Source of the DNA: Candidatus Nanohaloarchaea archaeon
Lineage (GTDB): Archaea > Nanohalarchaeota > Nanosalinia > Nanosalinales > Nanosalinaceae
Direction of reading: 5' to 3'
Length of the DNA stretch: 64,000 nt
Assembly: GCA_041639695.1 (NCBI GenBank)
Contig: JBEQBQ010000002.1
Span: 869 to 64,868 of the forward strand
Shown: positions 3,478 through 38,155 of the stretch, in pieces
How the letters are laid out: every line of letters starts with the position of its first letter
Position numbering within the stretch: the first letter of the stretch is position 1
Program-made: the position numbers and the translations under genes
Notes under the pieces: generated by a model
Seen by the model: only the letters and a program-made list of their open reading frames with translations
What the model was told of the DNA's origin: nothing
Databases searched by the model: none

Positions 3478-3523
3478 CTAATAATTGAGCAGGGGGTTAT
3501 AAACAAGTTTTACCAGTCCAGCG

Positions 3524-6235: not shown

Positions 6236-6238
6236 TCT

Positions 6239-7087: not shown

Positions 7088-7116
7088 TACTGTACATAAA
7101 TTTTAAAGGTTCAAAT

Positions 7117-12363: not shown

Positions 12364-12674
12364 CCTATACACGTCATTTCTAAGCGTTTATCAACTTTGA
12401 ACATAGTGACGTTATAGCAGCTCTTCTCGTCCCAGTATTCTACTGTTGTGCTGTAGGACTCGAAGAACTCGACAGCTTTTCTAAAGTTTTTCCTTGCCTT
12501 AGGAGAGGTACCTGCTTTAGCTGCCTCAGTTTTAACCGATGAAACTACGTATGCCGTATCATCAACACTGTACTGTTGCTTATTTACTTCTGTGATGGTT
12601 GATGCAACACCAATAACCACTAGACCTATGACAATTGAGGAAATAAGCATAAACTGGCCTTTCATCTTTTCCAC
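12360..12674 (-). CDS. prepilin-like protein (class III signal peptide)
   Basis: N-terminus MEKMKG|QFMLISSIVIGLVVIGVA, i.e. KGQ followed by a hydrophobic helix; last gene of the pilus operon. Confidence 0.65.
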   Translation of the reverse strand: MEKMKGQFMLISSIVIGLVVIGVASTITEVNKQQYSVDDTAYVVSSVKTEAAKAGTSPKARKNFRKAVEFFESYSTTVEYWDEKSCYNVTMFKVDKRLEMTCIG

Positions 12675-14440: not shown

Positions 14441-15264
14441 ACCTCTATTCTTATCGGTTCTTCTTCAAGGGATGCAAATCTCTGGAGCTTTACAACTGTG
14501 GAGCTTGTGTCGATTCGGGCGCCAAATGTTTTTAGATGATCTTTAAGAAGAACAAGTGATCCTTGGTTCTCGGCCCGGTTCTGAAAGCTTTCTACAATAT
14601 AACCTGTGCTGTAGATTTCCTGTCCTCTTTCAAATCTTCCTGCGGTATTAAAATCCCAGTTACCAATACTCACATATATGGCGTTATAGGCGCCGTCATG
14701 AGAGGTTACTAGGAAGTTGTAGTTGGTTCCTTCTAGGTCTGCTGAACCGTATTGAACTGTATTGTCGGCGTTAGAGTATACTGGTTGGTTTGGTTCATCT
14801 ATATTGGGGCTTGAGGGGGGATCGCCTCTAGTAAAACTTTTGTTTGTGTCGATCGTAGGTCTCCACGTGAATTTGAATCTGAACTGGTTCGTTATACCCA
14901 TTAAATCTCGGAATTTGGAGTAATTAAGCCTTTTATCGGTGAAGTTAACTGAGGATAATCTTCTGATCTTCTCCCTTTCTAACTCGAGGAAGTCTTTAGC
15001 GAGCCCAAAGCTTTCTATGTTTCTTATAGTGTTCTGATTTTTCTGCCAGTCTGCCCCACCTGATCCGAACGTGTGACTTCCCGGAGCTGAAAGCATTACA
15101 TCTGTAACGCTTTTTGCTTCGAGGTTGAGACTTGATTTGTCTGCTTGATCGCTGTAAGAAGGTAGAAGATTTGATGCTGAGGTCATTAGAACCCCTACGG
15201 CAAGGATGTAAAGTAGTGCGGAAGCCAGAAATTCTATGTTTATCTGACCTTTCATCTTAGACAC
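14428..15264 (-). CDS. prepilin-like protein (class III signal peptide)
   Basis: MSKMKG|QINIEFLASALLYILAVGVLM; overlaps both neighbours. Confidence 0.65.
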   Translation of the reverse strand: MSKMKGQINIEFLASALLYILAVGVLMTSASNLLPSYSDQADKSSLNLEAKSVTDVMLSAPGSHTFGSGGADWQKNQNTIRNIESFGLAKDFLELEREKIRRLSSVNFTDKRLNYSKFRDLMGITNQFRFKFTWRPTIDTNKSFTRGDPPSSPNIDEPNQPVYSNADNTVQYGSADLEGTNYNFLVTSHDGAYNAIYVSIGNWDFNTAGRFERGQEIYSTGYIVESFQNRAENQGSLVLLKDHLKTFGARIDTSSTVVKLQRFASLEEEPIRIEVWTW

Positions 15265-16279
15265 CCGATAGACCTACCATGTACATGAAGACCAGGAATG
15301 CTATAGGCATCATGACTAGGGCGTGTTTCACGCCAGCTGAAGGGCTGCCTTCACCGATTTGCCCGGCTACAGCTCCTGTACAGATTCCTTGGACCATTAG
15401 CATGGAGAAAAGTAGGGACTTGTAGTATGCCATAGCGCCGTATTTGAATTTTTGAGCTGTCTGATTGGTGAAGGACTCAAGTCCGCTAGGGATAAAACCG
15501 AATATTCTTGCCAGTTCGCATAGAGGTTGGGCGAAGGGGATACTTCCGTCACAGTAGTTGGGGGACCCTCCTGAGCCTCCCAGGAATTCAGTGTTTTGGA
15601 GTGCTCCGGCACCAGGATCACCTAGTCCTAGGAGTTGTGAAAGCATGTAGTAGATTCCTACCGTGATTCCGATGAACAAGAAGTAGATAACGTACATTAT
15701 GAAGATCTGCTGCTTGATTTTCGAGTTTTTTTCCTGTATAACTTCCTTGAGCTGGGCTGAGTCTTCAGCGATGGATTCGATAGTTTTTGTGATGTTTCCT
15801 CCGCTTCGAAAGCTCTGTAAAAGGATAGAAACTGACTCCTGTATAACTGCTGATTCGTCCATTCTTTTGGAAAAACGTTCCATCACTTCTGGGAATGGGA
15901 TACCCCATGTAAGTTCGTTATGTATCTGTTCAATCTCCTTGTTGAGTCTTCCGTAATCTGTTTCTTTGGCTGATTCAAAGGACTGTATAATCGTCATACC
16001 GCCTCTCTTCGATTCTGCTAGGTCTTTGAGGAATGAAGGGAATTGATCTTCTACTTCTCTAATAGCACGGTTCTTGAGGAATGAAATTATTCCATATGGT
16101 AGAATTGATACTATTAGCCCTAGGATCAGTATAGAGCCGCCCATCTGCTGAAGTCCAGATACGTAAGAAAGAATGCCTATTAATATAAGGAAGGCTCCTG
16201 CACTTATTGCACTGAGAATTATTTTGTCTTCGGTTGAACGTCCTTTCTGGAGCTTTTCCTCTTTGAAGAATTCGAACAT
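15257..16279 (-). CDS. type IV pilus platform protein, single T2SSF domain (TadC/FlaJ-like half)
   Basis: 340 aa. One cytoplasmic T2SSF-like helical domain (FPSFLKDLAESKRGGMTIIQSFE...SGGNITKTIESIA) flanked by TM helices. Confidence 0.75.
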   Translation of the reverse strand: MFEFFKEEKLQKGRSTEDKIILSAISAGAFLILIGILSYVSGLQQMGGSILILGLIVSILPYGIISFLKNRAIREVEDQFPSFLKDLAESKRGGMTIIQSFESAKETDYGRLNKEIEQIHNELTWGIPFPEVMERFSKRMDESAVIQESVSILLQSFRSGGNITKTIESIAEDSAQLKEVIQEKNSKIKQQIFIMYVIYFLFIGITVGIYYMLSQLLGLGDPGAGALQNTEFLGGSGGSPNYCDGSIPFAQPLCELARIFGFIPSGLESFTNQTAQKFKYGAMAYYKSLLFSMLMVQGICTGAVAGQIGEGSPSAGVKHALVMMPIAFLVFMYMVGLSGV

Positions 16280-16283
16280 GGTA

Positions 16284-17156
16284 TCACCTGATACCTCCTG
16301 GAGCCATTCCCTTGACCATTAGAATAAACATGCCTGAGATCAGAGGAAGCCCGACAAATATGGCAGCCATCTGGATTAGGACGATCTTGGATCCTCCGAT
16401 ATTTGTGAATGAACTCATCACGACGCTCATCGAGGTAAATACAATTGAACCAACAATAACGACAGTAATATACATTTCAACCACAAGAGAAAGCTGCTCG
16501 GCGAAGGATTCTACCCTACGCTGGTAATCGTTCATTAGGGTTTTTGAACGCTCCTGTAGGAAAGCTCTTAGAGATCCTCCGGAAGTAAGAGCGTGATTTA
16601 TTCCCCAAAGTAGTTCCTCAAAGTCTTTGCTCGGAGTTCTTTCCGCTGCTCTTTCCAGTGCCTCCGAAACATCCATTCCAAAGTTGTCTATATCTCTGCT
16701 TATTTTTTCAGCTTCTTTTGATACTTCTCCATACTCTGTTGTAGAGGAGAGGATTTTGAACAGCTCGGATATGTCTGTTCCTGTGCCTGCAAGCGTTGAC
16801 ATGTACATGGTTGCGAATGGGAGTGTGTCTCTGATCTTTGATGCCCTCTGTTTCTTCAACACCGAAGGATATAGATAGAAGAAGAGCAGGCTGCCTGCTG
16901 AAACCAGAATTGAAATAATCAAGCCAATAATTATGCCTGAAGGCCCTGAAATAAGGGTAAGCGGGATTCCCAGTACGAAAAGGCTAAAGATAAAGCTCAT
17001 GATGGTTGAGAAAAACATCATGCTCAAGTATTCTGGCAGCGATATCTCTATATTCGCCTTGGCCAGTTGAGGCCTTAGTTCCTCGAACGTCTCAACATAG
17101 TCCAGAGTATATGTACCTATCTGGTCATAGCAGAAGTTTGCGTACTTCTCTAGCAT
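16284..17156 (-). CDS. type IV pilus platform protein, single T2SSF domain (TadB/FlaJ-like half)
   Basis: 290 aa. LPFATMYMSTLAGTGTDISELFK...SGGSLRAFLQERS with flanking TM helices. Confidence 0.75.
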   Translation of the reverse strand: MLEKYANFCYDQIGTYTLDYVETFEELRPQLAKANIEISLPEYLSMMFFSTIMSFIFSLFVLGIPLTLISGPSGIIIGLIISILVSAGSLLFFYLYPSVLKKQRASKIRDTLPFATMYMSTLAGTGTDISELFKILSSTTEYGEVSKEAEKISRDIDNFGMDVSEALERAAERTPSKDFEELLWGINHALTSGGSLRAFLQERSKTLMNDYQRRVESFAEQLSLVVEMYITVVIVGSIVFTSMSVVMSSFTNIGGSKIVLIQMAAIFVGLPLISGMFILMVKGMAPGGIR

Positions 17157-18865
17157 CAGTCTCCAATTCCTATTTCGGTATGCTCGGAATTTAAGCTTTC
17201 CCCGACTTCTTCTAGAATAGACTCTGGATCGGAGTAGTAACGTGAAATAATATCTCCGACCTTACGGTAATGCTTTTTCTGCTCTTTCTGCATCCAATTA
17301 AGAACGTGTTGTCTTCTTTGCAGCTCTTCTTGAATTTTTTGTTCGTCTCCTCCTGTTTCCTCGACGATTTCCTCTAGTAGAAGAGAGTTATTTTCTATCT
17401 TATAGGTATCATTTTTTGAATCCCATCCGAATACTTTGTTGGCATCTATACCAGTTCTCTTGTTGTATTCCTCAACCTCGTAGATTCCGGTAATCCTTCT
17501 GATGTACTTATTCCCTCTTCTGATTCTCTTAATCAGCATTATTGCGTCTAGAGTCTCGATTAGTGAAGGTGACAGGTTAATCGGGTTAGTTGTCAGACGG
17601 TCCATAAGCATGTCAAGGGAGTCTGCGTGGATCGTGCTGAGGCCTGTGTGTCCTGTTGCCATCTGCTGGAACAGAATGTATGCCTCTTCACCACGGACCT
17701 CGCCAACGATAATATATTCCGGTCTCTGACGAAGAGACTCCTTCAATAGATCATCCATGGATACCTCTCCGCCCTCTTCAACGCTTGAACCGAAGCCCGA
17801 ACGTGCTACCTCCGGAACCCAGTGGTCGTGTGGGAGCCTTAGCTCGGGGGTGTCCTCGATAGACACGATTTTCTTCTCAGGCCGGATGAAAAGGGAGAGA
17901 GCGTTGAGCTGAGAGGTTTTCCCTGCACCCGTTGTTCCACACACAAGAACAGACTTTTCGTGCTCGATCAAGGTCCACAGGTAGGAGAGCATTCTAGCGT
18001 TTTCGGTCTCGAAGTCCATCATGTGGATAGGAGTTAATGGATCCTCTGTGAACCTTCTGATCGTGAAGTTCGAACCTTTTCTGGCAATATCGGTTGCAAG
18101 AGTGGCCTGGACACGTGAACCATCAGGCAGAGAACCGTCGAGTAATGGCTGGGAAACAGAGATAGACCTGCCGCATCTCTGTGCAAGCTTCATGACGAAT
18201 GAGTCGAGTTTATCGGTATCTTCCCAGACGATATCGGTCTTGACAGATCCAAACTTAGGGTTTCTGTGGTATGCGTATACAGGAATATTGGTTCCGTCAC
18301 AGGAAATATCCTCTACTTCTGTATCGTTCATGAGAGGTTGAAGTTTTCCTAGGCCTGCGAAGTCTCTTTTCGCATAGTATCTGATAACTTCTCTCTGTTT
18401 ATCGCTTAATGATATTTCGTATTTATCAACGATCTGGTTCATCCGTTCCTCAAGGTATTCCTCTGCTTCTTCTGTTTCTAAGTCGGTGAAATCAAGGTCG
18501 AAGCTTCTTTCAAGTATTTCTTTTATTTTTCCTAGAATTCTCTCGGTTTCAGGGGTTAACTCAGGCTCTATAACTCTATAAATCAGCTCTCCGGCATCGT
18601 CATCCCAAGTGATATGTGCCCATGCATAGACCATTTCGCCCTCATCAGGATCTTCAGGTACTAGAGGGTAAGTAATATTCACATCGGAAAGACCTTCTTC
18701 CGTACCCTCTTCGTCCTCTTCCATAGATTCCCTGAATCTGCCTGGGGTAGGGACCTCTATCCCTCTGCTTGGTCCTGTGTCCTCTTCTTCTTCCTCGTCC
18801 TCGAACATCTCAGGGTGTTTAATCTTCCTGAGCTTCTCCGCCAGGCTGAGGAACTTGTAGCTCAT
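17156..18865 (-). CDS. type II/IV secretion-family ATPase (archaeal pilus assembly ATPase, FlaI/PilB/TadA-like)
   Basis: 569 aa. Walker A GTTGAGKTS, Walker B/Asp box PEYIIVGEVRGEEA, His box GHTGLSTIHA. Confidence 0.85.
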   Translation of the reverse strand: MSYKFLSLAEKLRKIKHPEMFEDEEEEEDTGPSRGIEVPTPGRFRESMEEDEEGTEEGLSDVNITYPLVPEDPDEGEMVYAWAHITWDDDAGELIYRVIEPELTPETERILGKIKEILERSFDLDFTDLETEEAEEYLEERMNQIVDKYEISLSDKQREVIRYYAKRDFAGLGKLQPLMNDTEVEDISCDGTNIPVYAYHRNPKFGSVKTDIVWEDTDKLDSFVMKLAQRCGRSISVSQPLLDGSLPDGSRVQATLATDIARKGSNFTIRRFTEDPLTPIHMMDFETENARMLSYLWTLIEHEKSVLVCGTTGAGKTSQLNALSLFIRPEKKIVSIEDTPELRLPHDHWVPEVARSGFGSSVEEGGEVSMDDLLKESLRQRPEYIIVGEVRGEEAYILFQQMATGHTGLSTIHADSLDMLMDRLTTNPINLSPSLIETLDAIMLIKRIRRGNKYIRRITGIYEVEEYNKRTGIDANKVFGWDSKNDTYKIENNSLLLEEIVEETGGDEQKIQEELQRRQHVLNWMQKEQKKHYRKVGDIISRYYSDPESILEEVGESLNSEHTEIGIGD

Positions 18866-27430: not shown

Positions 27431-29290
27431 TCATTTATTGGCGAGGTCATCTATTTCTTCTCTTAAGATCCTTGAGATTGTGGCTCCGTCAGCGTCAACT
27501 CTCTGCTGCATTTCTCCCATCAGTGGTCCCTGCGCACGCATACCCTGCTCTTCCACCATCTCTCTGTTTTCTTCTATCACCGTTCTGACCGCTTCACGGA
27601 TCTCTTCCTCGCCGGCTTTTCCTTCTTCGACCTCTTCAACCACTTTCTGCGGTTTTTTCTCGGACTTTTCGATCATCGATCTAAGAACTTCTTCTACATC
27701 CCCTTTCTTGATCTTCTCCGATTCTAGGGCAGAGAAAAGAGCGTTGTAATGGGTTCTTTCAAGTTTTCCGGTCTCAAAACCGTCTGATTCGATACCTGCC
27801 TCGATATTGGTGAATATGTTGGCGGCAAGTCTGGTATCAACTCTCTCCTTAAACTCTTCGAACATCTCAAGCTTCCTAGACTTTACTATCTGGCTAGCGA
27901 GTTCCTCGCCGATCTCTTCCTCGTAAATTTCCCTTCTTTCTTCCAGAGTCTTTGGAAGGTTCTGGTCGATCTCTTCAACCTCTTCTTCTTTAACTCTGAT
28001 TGCAGGGATGTCGGTTTCCGGATACATTCTTGCGGCACCAGGTAAAGGTCGAGAGTAACTTGTTGTAAAGTCCTGTTCGGCCGCTCTTGTCTCTTCAGGT
28101 ACTGTGCCTGAGTAGAGCATTTCCGCTCTTCTTTTGACTTCTTCTGCGGCGTTCTTTGCCTGTTTTTTTGGTGCGGCAATAATGGCCAGAACGTCCTCTT
28201 CTTCTCTGTCAAGTATTTCTTCTAGTTCATCGAACTCTTCTTTTAGGCCGTAGCCTTTGATGTCCTCATCCGTATGAATAATTCCTCGTGGGCCTTGCTG
28301 TCTTGCGTAGTCGACAAGTTCTTTAGCTACATAGCGATCGCCGGAAATATTCTCTTTCATCTTTCCGGTCATTCCAGGCATTTTAATCGCGTATACAGCA
28401 CCATCGTTTTGTAGAACTGTGGAGACGATTTCGTTCTCTGTCTCTTCAAAGATATGGGTTACGTTGTCTCCTAAAACTTCTTCCTCAGGTAGTTCTTCTC
28501 CAAGCCTGACGAGGTTTTTCTGTCTCTCTACCTCTAGCTCGATCAGTTTATCAATATTCTTTACATCTTGGAATCCTTTGATCTCGACCCGTGAACCTTC
28601 TTCAATTGATACGTTTACGTCCTGTCTTATGGTACCTAGACCTCTTCTAGCTTTTCCGGTAGACCTTAGTAGCATACCTATCTTTTCTGCAACTTCTCTG
28701 GCATGTTCAGGATTTTTGATTGAGGCATCTGTCCCTACCTCTACTAAAGGTACGCCCAGACGGTTCAGGTCGTAAACTGCTTTTTCCTGATCTCTTTCGT
28801 GGATGCCTGCTGATTCCTCCTCAAGTTCTATATCATCAATATTTACACTGCCGGACTCGGTCTCTAACTTTCCGTCCAATCCGATCATAGCTGTTCGCTG
28901 GAAACCACTTGTGTTAGATCCGTCGACAACGATCTTCCTCATGACTTGGATCTCATCAGGGATATCGGCATCTACCATTCTGGCAAAGGTCAAAGCAGTA
29001 TCAAGAGCTTCTTCATCCATCGAATGTGGGGGTTCTTCATCCAGTTCAACTAGGCAGTTGTTTCTTTTGTAGTATTTGTAGATGAACTTGGTAGATTTTT
29101 GGGCTTCCTTTTCAGCAGCTTCATCAGACTCACCGCTCTCTCCTTTGACTGCTCTCAAACGTCTTTCAACTCTGGCGTCGGCGTTCTCATCTACCAAGTC
29201 TACAGGGCAGCTGCAGAAAAGTTTTTCATCTGTTTTAAGCTGCTGGTGGATTTCAATACCGCATTTGAAGCCTAGTTCTTCGTAATTCAT
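27431..29290 (-). CDS. gatE: Glu-tRNA(Gln) amidotransferase subunit E
   Basis: 619 aa. MNYEELGFKCGIEIHQQL..., archaea-specific GatE layout. Confidence 0.9.
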   Translation of the reverse strand: MNYEELGFKCGIEIHQQLKTDEKLFCSCPVDLVDENADARVERRLRAVKGESGESDEAAEKEAQKSTKFIYKYYKRNNCLVELDEEPPHSMDEEALDTALTFARMVDADIPDEIQVMRKIVVDGSNTSGFQRTAMIGLDGKLETESGSVNIDDIELEEESAGIHERDQEKAVYDLNRLGVPLVEVGTDASIKNPEHAREVAEKIGMLLRSTGKARRGLGTIRQDVNVSIEEGSRVEIKGFQDVKNIDKLIELEVERQKNLVRLGEELPEEEVLGDNVTHIFEETENEIVSTVLQNDGAVYAIKMPGMTGKMKENISGDRYVAKELVDYARQQGPRGIIHTDEDIKGYGLKEEFDELEEILDREEEDVLAIIAAPKKQAKNAAEEVKRRAEMLYSGTVPEETRAAEQDFTTSYSRPLPGAARMYPETDIPAIRVKEEEVEEIDQNLPKTLEERREIYEEEIGEELASQIVKSRKLEMFEEFKERVDTRLAANIFTNIEAGIESDGFETGKLERTHYNALFSALESEKIKKGDVEEVLRSMIEKSEKKPQKVVEEVEEGKAGEEEIREAVRTVIEENREMVEEQGMRAQGPLMGEMQQRVDADGATISRILREEIDDLANK

Positions 29291-29887: not shown

Positions 29888-30093
29888 TCCTCCATCAACT
29901 CGTCTATCTCATCACTGAGTTGTTTGCAGTAGTCGAAAAACTCGGTTTCGTCCTCAACCCTATCTGGATACGCATCAAGATCCCATGGATTGAATTCGAA
30001 GGTTTCACGAGTATTTTCTTCTACAGTGTCTATGTAGAGGTTGGTAAATTCGTATACTTGGTGTCCCCAGTCTCCGCCCGGTATTTCAACCAT
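29884..30093 (-). CDS. small acidic hypothetical protein
   Basis: 69-aa ORF overlapping both neighbours (ATGA-type overlaps) inside the gatD-gatE operon. Confidence 0.45.
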   Translation of the reverse strand: MVEIPGGDWGHQVYEFTNLYIDTVEENTRETFEFNPWDLDAYPDRVEDETEFFDYCKQLSDEIDELMEE

Positions 30094-31384
30094 TATAGAC
30101 CGACCTCTTGTTGATCTCCCCGTTAACGTCAGTTTGGAAAACTTCTTTTGCTTCCTCCATGGATTCAGAGTTAGCTAGGCTCCACATCATTTTGACGTAG
30201 GCAAGTTCGGGATGCATGTCTTCTGCCTCGATCACTCCGGCCTCCTGTATCTTTATCCCGGGGCCGTACACGTTCATATTGGTTCTTCCGTTAATACACT
30301 GGGAGCTCATAGCCGGTACGGTATTTTCAGAAATGTTCCTAACTTTTTCTACTATCTCATCGTGGTGCTCCGTATGTTCATCGAAGGATGTGGCAGGTAG
30401 ATGCCCAAGTCCTGTTCCCTCAATAATCAAGCCTTCATAATCCTTTTCTTCTATAAATTCAAGCTCCTCCAGGTCTAGGCCGGGTCTTACTTTCAGGAAT
30501 CCGACATTTTTGTTAAGGTCGGGTTCGAAACTGTATTCTCCGGATTGTTCCTCGAAGTTTTCTGTTATTTTATCGTTGTCGTAGTCGACGGTTCCAAGAG
30601 GTTCTGCATTAATAGGTTCAAATGCATCCCTCCGAGATGTGTGCATCTTTCTTGCCTTCGCAGCAGGTATTACAGCGCATTTCGTGTCGTCCGGATCTCT
30701 GTGCATGCAGACCCCTATTCCTGTGAAGTCGGTTTCTGTCAGGAACTTTGTAGCGCAGTAAAGGTTCATAGCTGCATCGCTGCTTGGTCTGTCGCTACTT
30801 CGCTGGGCTCCAACAATCATTACACCTGTATCAAGGTTCTGCAGCATCAAGGTTAGCGCAGGGCCGGTGTATTGGATAGTGTCTGTCCCGTGGCCGACAA
30901 TTATTCCATCATAGTCGTCTTTCACTTCGTCAATCTTTTTTGCGATCTGTTGCCAGTGTTCTGGTTCCATATCCTCTGAAACCATCTGAGAAATGACTTC
31001 TGAATGGAGATTGCATTCCTCTGCCAGTTCTGGGTACATTTCAACTAGGTCTTCGGGATCGAAAGCCGGTTTTACTCCGCCTTCTTCGTATGAAACCCTT
31101 GAAGCAATTGTGCCGCCAGTGTGAAGTACCATTATGTCCGGATTCTCGTTATCATGAGGTACTTCCGGTTTCTCTAGGTCTTTTGTTTCTTTTTTCTCTA
31201 CTAACTCAAGTTCTTCGGGTTCCAGGCCTATGTTGTAGCCGGATTCTAGTTTGAGGACGATCGAGTTGGGGTCGCCGCTTTCCGGCTTCGGCATAAGCCT
31301 ACCTTTTCTATCGTTTACTTCCACGAGGTCGCCTTTCTCTATGTTTTTTTCATCGAGAAGACTGCGGATTTCGTCCGAATACAT
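30086..31384 (-). CDS. gatD: Glu-tRNA(Gln) amidotransferase subunit D
   Basis: 432 aa. Asparaginase-type VLHTGGTIAS and HGTDT motifs. Confidence 0.9.
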   Translation of the reverse strand: MYSDEIRSLLDEKNIEKGDLVEVNDRKGRLMPKPESGDPNSIVLKLESGYNIGLEPEELELVEKKETKDLEKPEVPHDNENPDIMVLHTGGTIASRVSYEEGGVKPAFDPEDLVEMYPELAEECNLHSEVISQMVSEDMEPEHWQQIAKKIDEVKDDYDGIIVGHGTDTIQYTGPALTLMLQNLDTGVMIVGAQRSSDRPSSDAAMNLYCATKFLTETDFTGIGVCMHRDPDDTKCAVIPAAKARKMHTSRRDAFEPINAEPLGTVDYDNDKITENFEEQSGEYSFEPDLNKNVGFLKVRPGLDLEELEFIEEKDYEGLIIEGTGLGHLPATSFDEHTEHHDEIVEKVRNISENTVPAMSSQCINGRTNMNVYGPGIKIQEAGVIEAEDMHPELAYVKMMWSLANSESMEEAKEVFQTDVNGEINKRSVYNG

Positions 31385-31486: not shown

Positions 31487-32224
31487 CTATCTGAAGTTCT
31501 GTACATCGACTTTCAGGAAGTCGGCGCCCGTAGGCAGCTGGTAAAGAACATCATACTTGAAACCGTACTCGCTTGAGATCGTAGCCTTAATCCTGCCCGT
31601 TCCAATATAATCTCCTAGTTGTTCGGCTTCTGTATAACCTGTTCCGTAGCTTGTAGATGGCTCGGCATTAAGTTTTACGGTAATATTGCCGTCCAGGTTT
31701 TTGTTCGGGCCTTCAGGGTTTTTGAACTCGTAGAGGGCGACTAGCTTTGAGGTATTGATACTTTGAGGAGAGCTGCTTGAACCCACATTTTTAATACAGG
31801 CCTTAATATGGTCGTTCTCCATAAGGTAGCACGAGGTTCCGTCTATAGTAGTTTTGTTTACCTCCACATTTGCAGAGGAACTTAAGACTATGTTGCCGCT
31901 TTTCTTCGAGGTCTGTGGCGATATTACGTTTGAATCAGTACGTAACTCATATATTAAGGATTTGGTGTCGTTGTTGAAATAGAGTTCTCCCCGGCTAAAA
32001 CTTATATCCATAGTTCTTGTAGAGCCTTTCCCTTCGGAGACGACTTCTTGGACGTTGGAGTCTACAGTCTGCATGAAGTTCTGGGCCTTCCTGATCGAGT
32101 TGGCGTCCTGCATGTTTTCAAGTGCGGGGGCGCCAACTGTAAGGGCTGCAGAGACCGCGGTCACAGTCACTCCTACGTATATTGCCATCGTCGCGATCTC
32201 AGAAACTCCTTTCGACATAACCAA
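31487..32224 (-). CDS. prepilin-like protein (class III signal peptide)
   Basis: MVMSKG|VSEIATMAIYVGVTVTAVSAAL. Confidence 0.6.
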   Translation of the reverse strand: MVMSKGVSEIATMAIYVGVTVTAVSAALTVGAPALENMQDANSIRKAQNFMQTVDSNVQEVVSEGKGSTRTMDISFSRGELYFNNDTKSLIYELRTDSNVISPQTSKKSGNIVLSSSANVEVNKTTIDGTSCYLMENDHIKACIKNVGSSSSPQSINTSKLVALYEFKNPEGPNKNLDGNITVKLNAEPSTSYGTGYTEAEQLGDYIGTGRIKATISSEYGFKYDVLYQLPTGADFLKVDVQNFR

Positions 32225-32248
32225 TCCTACTTTCTGGTGGCTTAAATA

Positions 32249-32797
32249 TTAATGGAGCCGGGTATTTACCCAGGTCTCACTATCATCTTCCATCTTGGAC
32301 CAGACAAACATACGGGAGTTAGAAACGTTAAACTCTCTGTCTATTCCGAGCGATTTCACCTTAATACGGGATTCAAACTTTCCTTCAGGAAGCGAAATCT
32401 GTTTGCTCTGCATGGATTCTAGAGTTAAGTTGGACCAAGATCCGTCTACTTGTATATCTGTATTGATTAGGGAATCGCCGTAATTAATTACGAGCCCTTT
32501 ACCCGAATAAGGAAGTAAGATATAATTTAGGCCTCTATAATCTATACCTTTTCTCTGAGACTGCCTGTCTATGAATCTGTGAGAGTTGTAAACCCTTCTT
32601 TCGATATATGTTGATGAGAGATTTTTCTGAAGGGCTTCGTCAAAAGATTCAACTGGTACATCCATCGAATCCGAGAAGTACTGCCTAAAATAGGTTTCTT
32701 CTCCGCCTTCTACAAAGTCGCCGTAAGAATAGACTGTTAGGAGAATGAAGCTTGAGAATACGATAGCTGAAAGTATGAAGACTTGGCCCTTTCTCAT
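32249..32797 (-). CDS. prepilin-like protein (class III signal peptide)
   Basis: MRKG|QVFILSAIVFSSFILLTVY. Confidence 0.6.
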   Translation of the reverse strand: MRKGQVFILSAIVFSSFILLTVYSYGDFVEGGEETYFRQYFSDSMDVPVESFDEALQKNLSSTYIERRVYNSHRFIDRQSQRKGIDYRGLNYILLPYSGKGLVINYGDSLINTDIQVDGSWSNLTLESMQSKQISLPEGKFESRIKVKSLGIDREFNVSNSRMFVWSKMEDDSETWVNTRLH

Positions 32798-33369
32798 TTG
32801 TATATCGCCGCCCGTATCTCGTAGCTCGAGTTTTCATATCCGGGATAGTTTACTGTATATACGTCGTCTTTCTCAGGCAGATTACCTTTCGAAATATATG
32901 AGTTAAATGAAACAGTAAGCTTTCCGGTTCCAGTAATATTGAACCATCTTTGGCCCGAATCAACGCTCTCAAAGTGGTAACCGTCTTTACTGATGTTGTC
33001 AAGCACCTTTGAATCCCCAAAACTTGCGTTGAGGTTGTCTGCGTTCTTCACCCATAGCTGCATGCCTGAAAGATTCGAGCTACTGAAATATGTCTGATCC
33101 GGGGACTGGAGACTTCTGTAAGTTGAGTTCATTTGGATTATTCTGACTGAATGATTGTAGCTCTCAGGTATAGTTGAATCAATTTTGTTCTTGACTAAAG
33201 AGGGGTCAAGCGGTAGTTTATCTCTTTGTTCTAGAGTTTTAAGTTCCTGCAGAACGCTGTCAAACTCGATATCTGCCTGCTGTGAAGTCTGGGGTAGAAC
33301 AACAAGTACCATAGTCAGAATTAGTGTCGATGCTATGACTGCCTCTAAAGTATGTATGAAACCCTTCAC
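32794..33369 (-). CDS. prepilin-like protein (class III signal peptide)
   Basis: MKG|FIHTLEAVIASTLILTMVLVVL; the N-terminus resembles that of 12662..14440 (GHIIEAMIAII). Confidence 0.6.
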   Translation of the reverse strand: MKGFIHTLEAVIASTLILTMVLVVLPQTSQQADIEFDSVLQELKTLEQRDKLPLDPSLVKNKIDSTIPESYNHSVRIIQMNSTYRSLQSPDQTYFSSSNLSGMQLWVKNADNLNASFGDSKVLDNISKDGYHFESVDSGQRWFNITGTGKLTVSFNSYISKGNLPEKDDVYTVNYPGYENSSYEIRAAIYK

Positions 33370-34532
33370 CAGACGGTCACCCTTGTACTTAGCTCAGTTA
33401 AGCTACCGTTCCTGTAAAAACCGGTAAGAAAGCCTTCTCTCGACACAGCCTGTTGCAAAGGTATCTGGCTGCCTATGGAGGTAATTTTCTTAGTTTGGTT
33501 CGATACTGAAATGTTAAACCTGTCCGGAGAACGTTCTAAGAGGTTTTGAAGCTCTTGATCTGATTTATTGTTAAGTTCTTCTATCCTCGCTATAGGGGCT
33601 GCTGGGAAACTGTTTAGGGGTCCGAAAACGGTTTTACCTTCGCTGTAGCTCTTTATCCTCTTCCAGCCTGCTTTGTAGTCTTTATCGTGAAGTCTTATCC
33701 GGACTCTGCTTGCGTTTATCTCCGCCAACACCGTCGAGCTATCGGGCTTGGATACATCAGCCTCCATATTACCTATAAAGCTTATGCCGTAGTTTGATGC
33801 TACGGTAAAACCTTTTGTGGTTCCCTGTTTGAAGGATCCGCTTCCTACAAGTTCGGTTGTAGAGTTGTCTGCTTCCCAGTACAGAGTTGAAAGGTTTTTG
33901 AGTTGGAAGGATATATCGGAGGCGTTTTCAAGAATCAGTTCCGTTGAACCGTTGTAAATATTTAGATCGACCGGCCTCATCTCTGCAAATAACCGATATT
34001 CCTCTATATTAAAGGTTGAAGTATTTAGATCCGCGGAGGATGAGAGAAGCTGTTTGTCATTAATTTTTAGCGACTGAAGCCCATTCCCGCCTGGTTTTAC
34101 TGAAATATCGGAGTTGTTCATCCATGTTCCTGTATCAATATCCTGGTAGACGTCCCCTGTAATATTTCTCGGGAAGAGATTCAGAGTTCTAGTAGCATTC
34201 GATTTCTCTATTACTGTAACTGTTCTGTTCTTGTAGAGCTCAACATTTTCATTCCCTAGGCTCGCGTTAACATAGAATTTGTCAAAAAAATGTTTTCGAT
34301 CCACAGGAACGCTTGAGATTGTAAACGGCGACCTTGTTACCAGTTTTTTCTGGCCGAGAGAATCAGTAAACTGGCTCTCCAAACGTTCGCCGACCTGGGT
34401 TGCCAGATTTTCTAGATTGCTTGAGTTTTCTCCTGTCTGGTAGCCGGCTAGGAAGATAATGCTGGAGAGTAATGTGATTATCATTAGACCCAGTCCTATA
34501 GACCAGTCGATGTTGACGGACTGACCTTTCAA
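33366..34532 (-). CDS. prepilin-like protein (class III signal peptide)
   Basis: MKG|QSVNIDWSIGLGLMIITLLSSIIFLAG; 388 aa. Confidence 0.6.
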   Translation of the reverse strand: MKGQSVNIDWSIGLGLMIITLLSSIIFLAGYQTGENSSNLENLATQVGERLESQFTDSLGQKKLVTRSPFTISSVPVDRKHFFDKFYVNASLGNENVELYKNRTVTVIEKSNATRTLNLFPRNITGDVYQDIDTGTWMNNSDISVKPGGNGLQSLKINDKQLLSSSADLNTSTFNIEEYRLFAEMRPVDLNIYNGSTELILENASDISFQLKNLSTLYWEADNSTTELVGSGSFKQGTTKGFTVASNYGISFIGNMEADVSKPDSSTVLAEINASRVRIRLHDKDYKAGWKRIKSYSEGKTVFGPLNSFPAAPIARIEELNNKSDQELQNLLERSPDRFNISVSNQTKKITSIGSQIPLQQAVSREGFLTGFYRNGSLTELSTRVTVW

Positions 34533-35440
34533 CTGATATCAACCTCGTTGGAACCAGTTTTCCTCACCGAGATTGAGTAGCCGCCTGACGAAAGATCAAG
34601 CTCAGAGTTCAGACTGATCTCTGGTTCATAACTAACTCTGACTAGGGGTTCTTGATGGATGATGAAGCCGAAGCTAGGTTTCAGTTTGTCTAGAAAGCTT
34701 CTGCCTGTTATAGTTTGTTTTCTACCCTCTATAGCTCCTTTGTTTCCTTGGGTTAAAGGCAGAATAAAGTTAGCTCTATTTGATTCTTTGGTGATACTCA
34801 ATAAATTTTTATCTTCCAAATTTCTCTCAGCTTTGAGAAAACTTGATGTTACTAAACCTGATACGTAATCATCTGAATCTGAAACTAAATAAGGAAATTC
34901 GGCAGGAGGGCTAAAATCTCTCTCAGTCTGAACCCTCTGGCCATCAAAGTAAATCTTATCTGAACTACTTAGGTTAAACTCCATCTCTACTGTAACGTTT
35001 TCAGGAGACTGATAGGTTCCACAGACCTTAGTATCGAAAACAGAAGGCTTTGAGACGTGAGCGTCATCTTTGGAGGAAGCGGAGAAAAGGACTGTTGAGT
35101 TTGAGGGACAAGAGCCTGTCGACGTGGTTACGGCCATTCTTCCGGTACATACGTGAAGGTTGTAGGAGTCAAAGATTGAGAAATGAGCGTTTTCCTCCCT
35201 AGATGACAGATAAAAACCTGAATTCGATTTACAGCTTGTTGAGATACTAGAACTTTCGATCCCTGAGACGCATACGTTATTTGAATAGTAGTTAGGCTCT
35301 GCCGGATGGCTATATGTTTCGTTGCTGTCGAAAGATATTAATGGTTCATAGCTCCCGCATTCATCTGCATATTTGACCTCCAGCGCGGCTGAAGCCGGAA
35401 TAATTAGAGCGATAACTAGCAGAATTTTCAGCAGCTTCAT
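34529..35440 (-). CDS. Sec-signal secreted protein with three Cys/His repeats (module copy A)
   Basis: 303 aa. MKLLKILLVIALIIPASAA signal. Paralog of 35947..36861 (shared SPENVT, PPxEFPY, PSFG, PLVRVxY). 4-nt overlap with the prepilin-like operon. Confidence 0.6.
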   Translation of the reverse strand: MKLLKILLVIALIIPASAALEVKYADECGSYEPLISFDSNETYSHPAEPNYYSNNVCVSGIESSSISTSCKSNSGFYLSSREENAHFSIFDSYNLHVCTGRMAVTTSTGSCPSNSTVLFSASSKDDAHVSKPSVFDTKVCGTYQSPENVTVEMEFNLSSSDKIYFDGQRVQTERDFSPPAEFPYLVSDSDDYVSGLVTSSFLKAERNLEDKNLLSITKESNRANFILPLTQGNKGAIEGRKQTITGRSFLDKLKPSFGFIIHQEPLVRVSYEPEISLNSELDLSSGGYSISVRKTGSNEVDIS

Positions 35441-35499
35441 GGTTTCAAAATTGTCTGCTTTCGGTTATTAAACCTGCACGCACTTGGGTCATCGAACGA

Positions 35500-35507
35500 T
35501 TTAAATT
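35500..35507 (+). promoter_or_regulatory. TATA-box-like element for 35531..35863
   Basis: TTTAAATT centred about 28 nt upstream of the ATG. The same element sits at the same distance in duplicate copy B. Confidence 0.35.
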
Positions 35508-35530
35508 CTGGAAAGCTGCTTAAACATTAT

Positions 35531-35863
35531 ATGGAGTCCAAAATTCTGATGACGCTACTGGGTATTTCTTTAGTAGCGGTAGCGGCTGCACCTGCCTCAG
35601 AGCCTAACCATCCGTTCTCTCAGATTTACCCGGTAGATGTTGACCTCAACATGTCAGAAAAGGATATCTTCAACGTTACAGAAGTCGATTTAGCTGGAGG
35701 CCTAATTTTCTCAGGTGACTGGATAAAGACTCCTGGTGGTGCTAGCCTTTTAGGCTGGAACTCTTCTTCAACAGAACTTGAATTGAATAATGGAAATCTG
35801 GACACAAATGGGAATAGTATAGTTTCCTCGGGTTCTGAGCTATGTCTAGGCGATGAATGCTAG
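35531..35863 (+). CDS. small Sec-signal secreted protein ending in a CxxxxC motif (module copy A)
   Basis: 110 aa. Signal peptide, HPFSQIYPVDVDLN, NGNLDTNGNSIVSS, C-terminal ELCLGDEC. Paralog of 36928..37266. Confidence 0.6.
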   Translation: MESKILMTLLGISLVAVAAAPASEPNHPFSQIYPVDVDLNMSEKDIFNVTEVDLAGGLIFSGDWIKTPGGASLLGWNSSSTELELNNGNLDTNGNSIVSSGSELCLGDEC

Positions 35864-35946
35864 AACCAAGAGACTATAACAATTTCAGATTAAGGAGATA
35901 CGTAAGTGGTTTGCAAATGTTTTAATGGAATTAGGAGGGATTAGAG

Positions 35947-36861
35947 TTAATCTAACGTGATTCTCACTGAATCTTCTATTATTCCGGAGTTACTGATTGT
36001 CAGGTCTCCACGTTCCCTGATATTTGAGTTATCGTTTCCAATTGTCAGATTAGGTCTATAAATTACTCTTACAAGCGGCATGCTCTGTAATGGTTCTCCG
36101 AAGCTCGGTTCAATCTGCTCGATTAAGACTCTTTCGTTGATTTCTTTCTGTCTTTTCTCAATCTCTGTCTGACCTCCATCAGAGAATGGTACTAAGAATG
36201 AAGATTGGCCTGCTGAAGTCATCGATACAGTATCAGAGGTAGGTCTAGAAAGTTTTAGGAAATCTCCGTAATTAACAATACCTAGAGGTTGCTCTGAAAC
36301 AATATACGGGAACTCGACAGGGGGATAGAGCTCTTCTCCGGTAGTTATCTCTTGTTGGCTTGCATATGTTGTCCCGGACACTCCATTCAACTCTAAGGTA
36401 ACGTTTTCCGGGCTTTTTGTCGTTAAACAGAGGCTCTTGTTGTATGGATCTGCGTTATAGCTTGGAGCAGCTGCGTGTGTGTTGGTCTTATCTGTTACGG
36501 ACAGAGTTTTCGTTCCGTTTACACAGCTATCTTTCACTGAGGCTCGTAAACTTCCTGAACATAGGCTGTAGCTGTACTGGTTCTCGAAAATACTGAGATG
36601 GGAGTTTGTCTTGTTAGCCATGGAGAAAAGGGTTTCGTCCCCTGAACTGCAGCTTAAACCAATTCCAAGGTTTTCAGCGTCATCCACACATACCTGATTG
36701 GGGTAATAACCGGGTTCTGCAACGTGACCTCCATCCGTTTTGTTGAGAGAGACTAAAGGCTCAGTTCCATCAGGACAGCTGGTTCCAACCGAAACATCTA
36801 CTGCTGTCACGCCTTGTGTGATTAAGATAAGGGCTCCAATTAGGAATATCTTTTTTCTCAC
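35947..36861 (-). CDS. Sec-signal secreted protein with three Cys/His repeats (module copy B)
   Basis: 304 aa, GTG start. MRKKIFLIGALILITQGVTA signal. Paralog of 34529..35440. Confidence 0.6.
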   Translation of the reverse strand: MRKKIFLIGALILITQGVTAVDVSVGTSCPDGTEPLVSLNKTDGGHVAEPGYYPNQVCVDDAENLGIGLSCSSGDETLFSMANKTNSHLSIFENQYSYSLCSGSLRASVKDSCVNGTKTLSVTDKTNTHAAAPSYNADPYNKSLCLTTKSPENVTLELNGVSGTTYASQQEITTGEELYPPVEFPYIVSEQPLGIVNYGDFLKLSRPTSDTVSMTSAGQSSFLVPFSDGGQTEIEKRQKEINERVLIEQIEPSFGEPLQSMPLVRVIYRPNLTIGNDNSNIRERGDLTISNSGIIEDSVRITLD

Positions 36862-36897
36862 GTCTAAAACTTGTTTAAACCCGAATATAAGATCAAC

Positions 36898-36904
36898 TTT
36901 AAAT
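36898..36904 (+). promoter_or_regulatory. TATA-box-like element for 36928..37266
   Basis: TTTAAAT centred about 27 nt upstream of the ATG; mirrors 35500..35507. Confidence 0.35.
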
Positions 36905-36927
36905 CCTGCGTTCTCTAAATTGCTGAT

Positions 36928-37266
36928 ATGAATAGCTGGAGAGCCGGAGGTATCGCCTTATTAGCCATATTTCTAGCTGCTCTAGCTACCGCTCCCACCG
37001 TACAACACCATCCGTTCTCACAGATTTTTCCGTCAGACCAGGATCTCAACTTTGGAGAATACGATGCGTTTAATATGACAGAAGTTAACCTGGCGAACGG
37101 AGCTATTTTCACAGGCAACGTGGTCAGAAACGCTGGAAGATCGATTGATATTATTAGATACCTAAATACTGGAAATGTAGAGATACCTAACGGCAATCTA
37201 GATCTGAAAGGCAACAACATTACTTCTTCATCTGGAGGTGAGATATGTGTCGGAGAATATTGTTGA
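36928..37266 (+). CDS. small Sec-signal secreted protein ending in a CxxxxC motif (module copy B)
   Basis: 112 aa. HPFSQIFPSDQDLN, NGNLDLKGNNITSS, C-terminal EICVGEYC. Confidence 0.6.
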   Translation: MNSWRAGGIALLAIFLAALATAPTVQHHPFSQIFPSDQDLNFGEYDAFNMTEVNLANGAIFTGNVVRNAGRSIDIIRYLNTGNVEIPNGNLDLKGNNITSSSGGEICVGEYC

Positions 37267-38155
37267 AATTGATAAAGAAGAATTAGAGGGACTGATTGAG
37301 AGTAAAGTTGAAGAAAGAGTAGAGGAGAGAGTACAGAAAGAGCTTGAGAAAGGAAAAAGTACTAAGAAAGAGTCCGAAAGCGGTATGTCGAGAAGAGGTT
37401 TTTTAAAGAAGCTTGGAGCTGGAGCAGTAGGTTTAGGCGCTCTTTCGCTGTCAGCCTCGGCATTAAACGTTAGAAGTGACGACCTGACATTCTACGGAGC
37501 TGATTCATCTCAGGAGTTAGAGGTGCTTGATGGAGGTCCTGTGAACATCAAAAACGCCAATTTGCAGTTAAATGGAAATAGTATTGAAGGGGTAGAATAT
37601 CTGAAGTTAAATAACATAGAGTTTGGAAGCTTGCCGACTGAGGAGTTCGTAATAGGTATAGATAACAGCGAGTCCCCGAAATATTATCATAATGGTTCTT
37701 GGAGGAAATTCTGGACCTCAAAAAACGATGGAGACGGAAGCGGGCTAAACGCTGACATGGTGGATGGCGAGGAACCGCCTTTTGGTCAGATGCCGTCGGG
37801 AGCTATTGTCATGTGGTCTGGCTCTATCTCGAACATTCCCTCAGGATGGGTTCTCTGTGACGGCAATAATGGCACGCCTGACCTCCGAGATCGTTTCGTG
37901 GTGGGTGCAGGCAACTCCTATAATGTTGGAAATACGGGAGGGGAAGCCTCACATAATCTTACGGAAAGCGAGATGCCTTCACATAATCATGGCATAAAGG
38001 AGGTAAGTAATGTTAACGATTCAAATATAGGGGAAGGATTTACGCACAACGACGGCGATACAAGCTATATCAATTTCTCGCAGGATGCTGGAGGCGATAG
38101 CGCTCACGAAAACCGACCGCCTTACCATGCGCTAGCCTATATTCAGAAGGTGTAA
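37247..38155 (+). CDS. coiled-coil-leader / twin-arginine-signal secreted protein with phage tail-collar-like C-terminal domain (family member 3)
   Basis: GTG 37247 gives MSENIVEIDKEELEGLIESKVEERVEERV, which aligns with member 4 (the ORF is open from 37238). RR at 49-50 (MSRRGFLKKLGAGAVGLGALSLSASA|L). GDGSGLNADMVDG. GAIVMWSGSISNIPSGWVLCDGNNGTPDLRDRFVVGAG...MPSHNH. Confidence 0.75.
   Translation: MSENIVEIDKEELEGLIESKVEERVEERVQKELEKGKSTKKESESGMSRRGFLKKLGAGAVGLGALSLSASALNVRSDDLTFYGADSSQELEVLDGGPVNIKNANLQLNGNSIEGVEYLKLNNIEFGSLPTEEFVIGIDNSESPKYYHNGSWRKFWTSKNDGDGSGLNADMVDGEEPPFGQMPSGAIVMWSGSISNIPSGWVLCDGNNGTPDLRDRFVVGAGNSYNVGNTGGEASHNLTESEMPSHNHGIKEVSNVNDSNIGEGFTHNDGDTSYINFSQDAGGDSAHENRPPYHALAYIQKV

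What the first reader, a model, noticed from the sequence alone, without database searches (positions are those of the whole stretch)
34529..37266. Tandem duplication of a divergent two-gene module (about 304-aa Cys-rich protein on the minus strand, about 111-aa CxxxxC protein on the plus strand)
Copy A is 34529..35440(-) with 35531..35863(+). Copy B is 35947..36861(-) with 36928..37266(+). Both members are clearly paralogous between copies. The large proteins share SPENVT, PP[AV]EFPY[LI]VS, [KE]PSFG and PLVRV[SI]Y. The small proteins share HPFSQI[YF]P.D.DLN, FN[VM]TEV[DN]LA.G.IF[ST]G, NGNLD..GN.I.SS and a terminal C-x-G-[DE]-x-C. The divergent intergenic regions keep a TTTAAAT element 27-28 nt upstream of each plus-strand ATG. 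The NGNL.LNGNSI string also occurs in member 3 of the Tat family, linking the module to the fibre island.
Basis: seen in the sequence. Interest (0 to 1): 0.6.

Follow-up and report, generated by a model that had tools for sequence, protein, structure and literature searches.

The report
Conserved nanohaloarchaeal surface-protein gene pair
A tiny salt-lake symbiotic archaeon carries three old copies of a back-to-back gene pair for two unstudied secreted proteins, and the pair is conserved across many related genera beside pilus-like and fibre-like genes, making it a testable candidate for part of the host-attachment apparatus.

Summary
The two ~304-aa proteins are 33% identical (E 9e-43) and the two ~111-aa proteins 48% (E 2e-26). 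All quoted motifs and both TTTAAAT boxes are where stated.

This is not a recent tandem duplication. The genome (Nanohaloarchaeota, 0.97 Mb) has a third pair on another contig, and the three large genes fall into three old subfamilies (A, B, C), each with its own ortholog in a sister genome.

The pair itself is real and conserved. 28 of 43 full-length large genes in the 70 genomes held (26 of 31 in the window's own family) have a "head"-family gene divergently upstream. B-type pairs share a compact bidirectional promoter with two back-to-back TATA boxes.

The large protein is Sec-secreted: three Cys-bracketed repeats plus a C-terminal domain. A-type copies always head an operon of four prepilin-like genes.

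The small proteins are minimal members of a secreted family (110-2722 aa) with a conserved mature N-terminal head and a variable fibre-like remainder.

Neither family matches Pfam, NCBIfam, PHROGs, PDB or BFVD.

Best reading, inferred and not shown: a pilus-associated surface docking protein with matched fibre adhesins. Sequence homology to the Tat fibre family is not supported; the link is genomic.

Another window of this scan noted a similar Cys-rich operon leader.

The parts
34529..35440 (-). Large A (303 aa), subfamily A. It has a Sec-type signal, three Cys-bracketed repeats (C28-C57, C70-C98, C111-C140) and a C-terminal domain (about residues 145-303). It is the first gene of a five-gene operon.
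   Evidence: ORF and translation. Paralogy. Subfamily. Internal repeats by hhalign, probability 87-97%. Model pLDDT about 90 for residues 20-145.
35463..35473 (-). TATA-like box (GTTTAATAACC on the minus strand) centred about 28 nt upstream of the large A ATG.
   Evidence: Sequence. The box and its spacing are conserved in the sister genome.
35500..35506 (+). TTTAAAT TATA box centred 28 nt upstream of the small A ATG.
35531..35863 (+). Small A (110 aa), a minimal member of the head family. It has a Sec-type signal, the mature N-terminal head (EPNHPFSQIYPVDVDLNMS...), one NGNLDxNGNxI unit and a C-terminal CLGDEC.
   Evidence: Absent from the orthologous spacer in the sister genome.
35947..36861 (-). 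Large B (304 aa, GTG start), subfamily B, with the same two-domain architecture as large A.
36883..36904 (.). Compact bidirectional promoter core, GAATATAAG-N6-TTTAAAT. It holds two back-to-back TATA boxes, each centred 26-27 nt from its start codon.
   Evidence: The same core, GAATAAAAG-N6-8-TTTA(A/T)AT, is conserved in B-type pairs of five other genomes.
36928..37266 (+). Small B (112 aa), a B-type head-family member (QHHPFSQIFPSDQDLNFGEYD...), with a C-terminal CVGEYC.
37238..38155 (+). Tat-signal protein with a phage tail-collar-type tip. Its start overlaps the end of small B by 29 nt, so it is the downstream partner in the B-type operon.
   Evidence: The overlap is conserved in L009, L013 and L014.
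31487..34532 (-). Four prepilin-like genes with class III-type N-termini (MKG|Q.VNIDW, MKG|FIHTLEAVIA, MRKG|QVFIL, MSKG|VSEIAT). They overlap or abut one another and follow large A.
   Evidence: Pfam DUF7289 at E 4e-8 and DUF7288 weakly. The same four genes follow every A-type large gene examined. The first of them is single-copy and always sits next to the A-type gene.

Best explanation
The region encodes two of three ancient paralogous copies of a divergently transcribed, co-regulated gene pair for exported cell-surface proteins of Nanohaloarchaeota.

Shown:
1. The large protein has a Sec-type signal, a domain of three Cys-bracketed repeats, and a conserved C-terminal domain. Each domain also occurs on its own in other DPANN surface proteins.
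2. The A subfamily is always the first gene of an operon with the same four prepilin-like genes.
3. The small proteins are the shortest members of a family built from a Sec signal, a highly conserved mature N-terminal head (HP[LF]S[QE]I.P.D.DLN), a variable fibre-like body of 0 to about 2600 residues, and one of three C-terminal endings.
4. Head genes and large genes are divergent neighbours across many genera. They are present or absent together, and the B-type heads go with the B-type large genes.
5. All four genes have TATA boxes centred 26-28 nt before the start codon, which implies leaderless transcripts from bidirectional promoters.

Inferred:
- The large protein works as a non-pilin partner of a four-minor-pilin complex of a type IV pilus-like filament, in the manner of PilY1 with FimU-PilVWX.
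- The conserved head of the fibre-family protein docks onto its matched large protein. In this way variable fibres, and in the B clade the separately Tat-exported tail-fibre-like protein, would be displayed for attachment to the haloarchaeal host.
For: Paralogy.

Third pair in the same genome.

Three old subfamilies, each with an ortholog in the sister genome.

Divergent adjacency: 25 of 29 large genes in the fetched loci and 28 of 43 full-length hits in the 70 genomes held. In the window's own family the figure is 26 of 31, and at least one of the exceptions lies at a contig end.

Co-occurrence by genus within that family: 10 genera have both families, and 11 have neither a full-length large gene nor a true head.

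B-type heads separate from A/C heads on the head tree, and they are partnered with B-type large genes.

A bidirectional TATA-TATA core is conserved in six B-type pairs. The large A TATA box is conserved in the sister genome.

Every A-type large gene with downstream sequence is followed by the same four class III-signal genes. The first of these is single-copy in 17 genomes of the family. It lies directly downstream of the large gene, or in one genome downstream of a C-domain-only gene.

The two domains occur separately and in long surface proteins, also in Aenigmarchaeota, where they are again next to pilin-like genes.

Published context: type IV pilus-like structures have been proposed to mediate nanohaloarchaeal host contact (PMC6642349, read).
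Against: - There is no experimental or structural evidence for any physical contact between the large protein, the pilin-like proteins and the head proteins.
- The large-protein model finds no known fold (Foldseek E above 0.05 in PDB and BFVD). The small-protein model is unreliable (pLDDT 56).
- B- and C-type large genes are not followed by pilin genes, so the link to a pilus rests on the A type only.
- A and C heads are intermixed on the head tree. The non-B heads of this genus form one recent clade, so partner matching is not strict.
- Other families of the order (f4, f5) mostly have the large gene without an adjacent head: only 2 of 12 are paired.
Confidence: 0.4

Rival explanations
1. The two families are unrelated surface or envelope proteins, for example S-layer-associated proteins. 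They merely share a bidirectional promoter and are co-regulated, with no physical partnership and no role at a pilus.
For: No interface evidence exists. B- and C-type large genes lack pilin neighbours. The C domain also ends many unrelated giant surface proteins, which fits a general envelope-anchoring domain.
Against: The divergent adjacency persists across many genera although the head-gene body varies from 110 to 2722 aa. B heads are matched with B large genes. A-type large genes are strictly coupled to the four-prepilin operon.
Confidence: 0.3
2. This is a recent tandem duplication of a two-gene cassette. The copies would then be redundant and drifting.
For: The copies are adjacent, have the same orientation pattern, and are paralogous in both genes.
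Against: Large A and B sit in different clades (SH-aLRT support 96, and 95 and 93), with orthologs in other genera. The sister genome has both large genes but no small A between them. Small A is nearest to a 354-aa gene in another island of the sister genome and to the contig-1 small genes, not to small B.
Confidence: 0.05
3. The module is a remnant of an integrated virus or a tailocin-like element, with the small proteins as tail-fibre pieces and the large protein as a fibre assembly or adaptor protein.
For: The neighbouring Tat protein carries a tail-collar tip and matches PHROG tail-fibre families. The NGNLxLxGNxI unit resembles fibre shaft repeats. An Aenigmatarchaeota locus has a Peptidase_S74 fibre gene upstream of an N..C protein.
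Against: Neither the large nor the head proteins match any PHROG or BFVD structure. The locus is in stable chromosomal synteny (GatD/GatE, TatAC, RNase J) across genera. No capsid, terminase or integrase genes were seen among the neighbouring genes that were scanned. The proteins carry cellular export signals.
Confidence: 0.1

Closest known systems
PilY1 with the minor pilins FimU-PilV-PilW-PilX (bacterial type IV pili), and GspH-I-J-K tip complexes of type II secretion
   Same: A Sec-exported non-pilin protein is encoded in one operon with four pilin-like proteins and away from the ATPase and platform genes. Here large A is followed by four class III-signal genes, and the PilB3/TadC genes lie about 16 kb away.
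   Different: There is no sequence or fold similarity to PilY1/PilC (no Pfam hit; no Foldseek hit). The system is archaeal. The B and C paralogs stand alone without pilin genes. Tip location is inferred only.
Haloarchaeal pilin-like families DUF7287/DUF7288/DUF7289 next to PilB3-PilC3-type loci
   Same: The four genes downstream of large A have class III-type N-termini. The last one matches DUF7289 above Pfam's threshold, and the second matches DUF7288 weakly. A PilB3-like ATPase and two TadC-like genes are in the window.
   Different: The large and small proteins themselves are not pilins: they have Sec-type signals, not [KR]G followed by a hydrophobic N-terminus. Neither belongs to any of these families.
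Phage tail-fibre and tail-collar proteins (PHROG tail-fibre families, Pfam Collar, Peptidase_S74)
   Same: The long head-family members are repetitive, with NGNLxLxGNxI units that recall fibre shafts. The gene after small B carries a true tail-collar tip.
   Different: Head and large proteins match no PHROG, Pfam, PDB or BFVD entry. Homology to the Tat fibre family is not supported.
SPEARE and other giant adhesion proteins proposed for nanohaloarchaeal host interaction (Hamm et al. 2019, PMC6642349)
   Same: These are exported, variable, lineage-specific surface proteins of Nanohaloarchaeota. Some long relatives of the two domains carry Laminin_G_3 domains.
   Different: The proteins here are small, with no protease or restriction-endonuclease domains. 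The pair has a different gene architecture and is not mentioned in that paper.

Membership tests
Archaeal type IV pilins (class III signal peptide proteins) | A short positively charged N-terminus ending in [KR]G/A, directly followed by a roughly 20-residue hydrophobic helix that stays in the mature protein | tested here: not met
   Large A and B and small A and B have n-h-c Sec-type signals (MKLLKILLVIALIIPASA|A..., MESKILMTLLGISLVAVAAAPASE...). The four genes downstream of large A do show the class III pattern. No signal-peptide predictor was available, so this is read from the sequence.
PilY1/PilC tip adhesins | A non-pilin, Sec-exported protein encoded in a minor-pilin operon | tested here: met
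   Large A overlaps the start of the first of four prepilin-like genes. The same holds in all 9 A-type loci that have downstream sequence and in 16 of 17 genomes.
PilY1/PilC tip adhesins | A C-terminal PilY1/PilC beta-propeller domain (Pfam Neisseria_PilC) | tested here: not met
   No Pfam or NCBIfam family matched at E up to 1. There was no Foldseek match in PDB.
Phage tail-fibre and tail-collar proteins | A match to tail-fibre profiles (PHROGs, Pfam Collar, Gp10_C or Peptidase_S74) or to solved fibre folds | tested here: not met
   No PHROG family matched large A or B, small A or B, or the 699-aa head protein P0034. There were no PDB sequence hits. The neighbouring Tat protein does match.
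Tat substrates (the window's Tat fibre family) | A twin-arginine signal (S/T-R-R-x-F-L-K), plus homology to the family | tested here: not met
   There is no RR motif in any large or head protein. TIGR01409 matches only the neighbours. hhalign of the head family against the Tat family gave probability 6.5%.
Large family defined here (triple Cys-repeat N domain plus C domain) | Three Cys-bracketed repeats of about 30 residues (34-column blocks were aligned), followed by the ENVT...FPY[IL]VS...PSFG...VRV.Y domain | tested here: met
   Domain HMMs match both window copies: N domain 1e-49 and 2e-42, C domain 1e-68 and 6e-49. Repeats are confirmed by hhalign. 811 relatives were found at E up to 1e-3 in 1.8 billion representative proteins.
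Head family defined here | A Sec signal followed within about 10 residues by HP[LF]S[QE]I.P.D.DLN...[IF].N[VIL][ST] | tested here: met
   The head HMM matches small A at 6e-30 and small B at 2e-27, at residues 20-71. N-termini are aligned.

The most novel reading that the evidence does not exclude
The pair, together with the four-prepilin operon, is the core of a DPANN-specific attachment organelle. A Cys-stabilised non-pilin protein sits on a minor-pilin tip complex and acts as a socket. Interchangeable fibres plug into it through their conserved N-terminal head. Three socket/plug specificities (A, B, C) are kept in parallel, and in one clade the distal receptor-binding part is exported separately through Tat.
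Probability: 0.2. Interest if true: 0.8.

Novelty: new variant of a known kind. Interest (0 to 1): 0.55.

Why it matters
Nanohaloarchaeota and other DPANN archaea live attached to host cells, and how they hold on is largely unknown. The proposals so far are giant SPEARE-type proteins and pilus-like filaments (PMC6642349).

This analysis defines two unannotated protein families with no Pfam, NCBIfam, PHROG, PDB or BFVD match. They form a conserved, co-regulated gene pair and are tied to a minor-pilin-like operon and to fibre-like proteins. They are present in roughly half of the nanohaloarchaeal genera held, and their domains reach into Aenigmarchaeota.

That gives concrete small targets (about 110 aa and 300 aa) for localisation, binding and structural work in the available co-culture systems. 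It also gives a genomic marker that splits the phylum into lineages with and without this apparatus.

Tried and rejected
- **Family libraries.** Pfam, NCBIfam and PHROGs scans of both proteins and of distant relatives gave nothing.
- **Solved structures by sequence.** PDB searches with both family profiles gave nothing below E 0.2.
- **Fold search.** Foldseek with the large A model against PDB and BFVD gave no match below E 0.05 and TM-scores of about 0.1-0.2.
- **Small B structure.** The prediction gave pLDDT 56, too poor for a fold search. That is as expected if the protein is a piece of an oligomeric fibre.
- **Word-indexed search with small A alone.** It found only itself. The family profile was needed.
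- **Homology to the Tat fibre family.** Rejected. BLASTP found only a 23-residue match at E 0.003, the repeat-unit HMM gave E 0.17 genome-wide, and hhalign gave probability 6.5%.
- **Recent tandem duplication.** Rejected by the trees.
- **The 201-aa glutaredoxin-like neighbour of other genera.** It is not present in this genome.
- **Literature.** Searches for DUF7287-7289 and for nanohaloarchaeal pilin or cysteine-rich proteins found no description of these families.
Full report
**1. Organism and setting**

The window is contig 2 of a 0.97-Mb, 38-contig genome, 89% complete. Its closest protein relatives are annotated as Nanohaloarchaea. The window carries archaeal markers: GatD, GatE, thermosome, TatA/TatC, RNase J and GluRS. 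It also carries a PilB3-like ATPase with two TadC-like genes at about 15.2-18.9 kb.

**2. The observation**

- Large A against large B: 33% identity over 286 residues, E 9e-43.
- Small A against small B: 48% identity over 86 residues, E 2e-26.
- All quoted motifs are present.
- TTTAAAT lies at 35500-35506 and 36898-36904, centred 28 and 27 nt before the two plus-strand ATGs. The heptamer occurs only 9 times in the window, against 16 expected by chance.

**3. There is a third copy, and the copies are old**

Searching the whole genome finds a third large gene on contig 1. A head-family gene of 178 aa sits divergently next to it. A fourth small gene of 115 aa lies 3 kb further on, directly followed by a Tat-signal protein.

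A maximum-likelihood tree of 66 full-length large proteins has three subfamilies. Large A lies in a 34-row clade (SH-aLRT 96). Large B lies in a 20-row group (SH-aLRT 80). The contig-1 copy lies in an 8-row clade (SH-aLRT 100). A second tree of 29 locus-derived sequences gives the same split.

Each of the three has its own ortholog, at 62-70% identity, in the same-genus genome GCA_014297435.1. So the A/B split predates the radiation of the family and is not a recent tandem duplication.

Small A has a different history from small B.
- On a tree of head regions, small B groups with its ortholog, and the B-partnered heads of other genera lie with it outside the A/C clade.
- Small A falls in a genus-specific clade (SH-aLRT 97) with the contig-1 small genes and with a 354-aa gene of the sister genome.
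- The sister genome has only a 183-bp spacer where small A lies here.

**4. The pair is a conserved module**

I fetched loci around relatives and scanned them with HMMs for the large N domain, the large C domain and the head. In these loci 25 of 29 full-length large genes have a head-family gene upstream on the opposite strand.

An unselected count used all hits in the 70 Nanohaloarchaeota genomes held.
- 28 of 43 full-length large genes have a divergent head gene within 2.5 kb.
- In the window's own family (f1) the figure is 26 of 31, and at least one of the exceptions lies at a contig end.
- In the two other families that carry the gene it is 2 of 12.

By genus within f1, 10 genera have both families, and 11 have neither a full-length large gene nor a true head. 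Related genomes are not independent, so these are descriptive counts, not a test.

**5. Promoters**

Spacers of tight pairs are 57-91 bp. In six B-type pairs from different genomes the spacer holds a conserved core, GAATAAAAG-N6-8-TTTA(A/T)AT. This is two back-to-back TATA boxes, each about 21-23 nt from its start codon. The window's copy is at 36883-36904.

Large A has its own box (TTTAATAA on the minus strand, within 35463-35473), centred 28 nt before the ATG and conserved in the sister genome.

From established knowledge of archaeal promoters, where the TATA box is centred about 26-27 nt before the transcription start, all four genes should give leaderless or near-leaderless transcripts from bidirectional promoters. 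This is inferred and was not measured.

**6. What the large protein is**

It has an n-h-c Sec-type signal. It then has three repeats, each bracketed by two Cys (C28/C57, C70/C98, C111/C140), with a conserved Ser, His and Tyr. hhalign between the repeats gives probabilities of 87-97%.

The AlphaFold model has pLDDT about 90 for residues 20-145 and lower confidence for the C-terminal domain. The mean is 72.7.

Foldseek finds no known fold in PDB or BFVD. Profile searches of PDB sequences, Pfam, NCBIfam and PHROGs are empty.

A profile search of 1.8 billion representative proteins finds 811 relatives at E up to 1e-3, and it shows that the two domains are separable:
- proteins of about 175 aa made of a signal plus the C domain;
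- long proteins with the N domain only;
- proteins in which the N and C domains bracket an insert;
- giant proteins that end with the C domain.

Named members are all "hypothetical" proteins from Nanohaloarchaea and Aenigmarchaeota.

**7. Link to pilin-like genes**

Every A-type large gene with downstream sequence (9 of 9 loci) is followed by the same four genes with class III-type N-termini, with overlapping or abutting boundaries: KG|Q.VNIDW, KG|F.HTLEAVIA, KG|Q.FIL and KG|.S[EQ].AT. In the window these are 33366-34532, 32794-33369, 32249-32797 and 31487-32224. The last matches Pfam DUF7289 at E 4e-8.

The first of the four is single-copy in the 17 other f1 genomes where it was found. It lies directly downstream of the large gene. 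In one genome it lies downstream of a C-domain-only gene, and in another it sits at a contig start (one search compared).

B- and C-type large genes are not followed by pilin genes.

In an Aenigmarchaeota genome a protein with the N and C domains is also followed by pilin-like genes, including a DUF7289-like one.

**8. What the small proteins are**

They are the shortest members of a family found so far only in Nanohaloarchaeota-type sequences. The profile search of 5.8 billion proteins returned 13 hits.

All members share a Sec-type signal and, within a few residues of the predicted cleavage site, the head HP[LF]S[QE]I.P.D.DLN[MF]....[IF].N[VIL][ST]. After the head the proteins vary from 110 to 2722 aa and contain units like G.V.[VI]PNGNLD..GN.I. 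They end in one of three ways: SSGGE.C.G..C, MEVDS.GDVVVTLG or F.[LF]PVG.N.Y.

The B-type head genes of the window, L009 and L014 overlap the start of a Tat-signal protein gene by 29 nt, and in L013 by about 20-29 nt depending on the start chosen. In the window this Tat protein is the one with the tail-collar tip.

Sequence homology between the head family and the Tat family is not supported.

**9. Mechanism**

Shown:
- two exported protein families;
- a conserved divergent arrangement with shared promoter architecture;
- co-occurrence of the two families;
- partial partner matching, with B heads next to B large genes;
- strict coupling of the A type to a four-prepilin operon.

Inferred:
- The large protein is the non-pilin partner of a minor-pilin complex. 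This is analogous to PilY1 with FimU-PilVWX, or to the four-pseudopilin tip of type II secretion.
- The conserved head of the fibre-family proteins docks on the matched large protein, so that variable fibres are displayed for host contact.

I give this full mechanism about 0.4. That the locus encodes a co-regulated cell-surface module of some kind I hold at about 0.85.

Rivals are co-regulated but physically independent envelope proteins (0.3), a virus- or tailocin-derived module (0.1), and a recent tandem duplication (0.05).

**10. Novelty**

Neither family is in any library searched. I found no paper describing them. The general kind, archaeal pilus-associated surface or adhesin loci, is known, and membership in PilY1, pilin, tail-fibre and Tat families was tested and not met. 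I therefore file this as a new variant of a known kind.

Another window of this scan, on a different genome, independently noted a Cys-rich secreted protein leading a pilin-like operon (e1-3932650). I did not check that note.

**11. Limits**

- The trees used the quick search with SH-aLRT support only.
- The loci fetched were chosen because both families had hits there. For that reason I also give the unselected count.

Noticed in passing
L010 7323-7928 (-), L012 1066-1671 (+), L011 8996-9628 (+), L034 5007-5612 (+): A 201-210-aa protein sits between the A-type large gene and the head gene in most other genera. It also sits next to the N..C protein in an Aenigmarchaeota genome. It has an N-terminal membrane helix and a glutaredoxin-like C-terminal half without CxxC, flanked by two conserved Cys. 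It has no Pfam match and is absent from this genome. It may be a dedicated folding helper for the Cys-rich protein.
   Followed up: partly
window 37238-37266; L009 6249-6277; L014 3511-3539; L013 about 5091-5119: The B-type head gene and the following Tat-signal fibre gene overlap by 29 nt in the window, L009 and L014, and by about 20-29 nt in L013. This suggests translational coupling of a Sec substrate and a Tat substrate.
   Followed up: partly
L035 (Aenigmatarchaeota GCA_042215745.1) 1-7898: The gene order is: Peptidase_S74 fibre protein (with GSGSDLNADKLDG and GNLNMSGNNITN motifs), a Cys-rich 290-aa protein, the N..C protein P0090, a C-domain-only 185-aa protein, GatD, GatE. The window shows the same adjacency to GatD/GatE (pilin operon, then GatD at 30086-31384 and GatE at 27431-29290).
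   Followed up: no
G004:C6 15631-16134 and 28330-28827: The large protein's C domain lies within open frames of 4177 and 4225 aa in another family of the order. It is likewise found in frames of 972-1843 aa elsewhere. This suggests a shared C-terminal module of giant surface proteins.
   Followed up: no
G028:C3 7085-8841 (L022) and G031:C10 (L021 4598-5143): In one genome a C-domain-only 184-aa gene, rather than a full large gene, directly precedes the first prepilin-like gene. In another, a C-domain-only gene follows a C-type large gene. This hints that the C domain, not the Cys-repeat domain, is the part tied to the pilin-like proteins.
   Followed up: partly
L008 10343-10555 and L026 3019-3231: A 70-aa ORF with an RR-type motif near its N-terminus directly follows the 178/183-aa C-type head gene in both genomes of the genus. 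It was not examined.
   Followed up: no
window 12662-18865: A type IV pilus-like motor locus is present: a PilB3-like ATPase (17156-18865), two T2SSF/TadC-like genes (15257-17156), a weak DUF7287-like gene (14428-15264) and a 592-aa ORF. It is the likely machinery for the motor-less prepilin operon at 31487-34532.
   Followed up: partly
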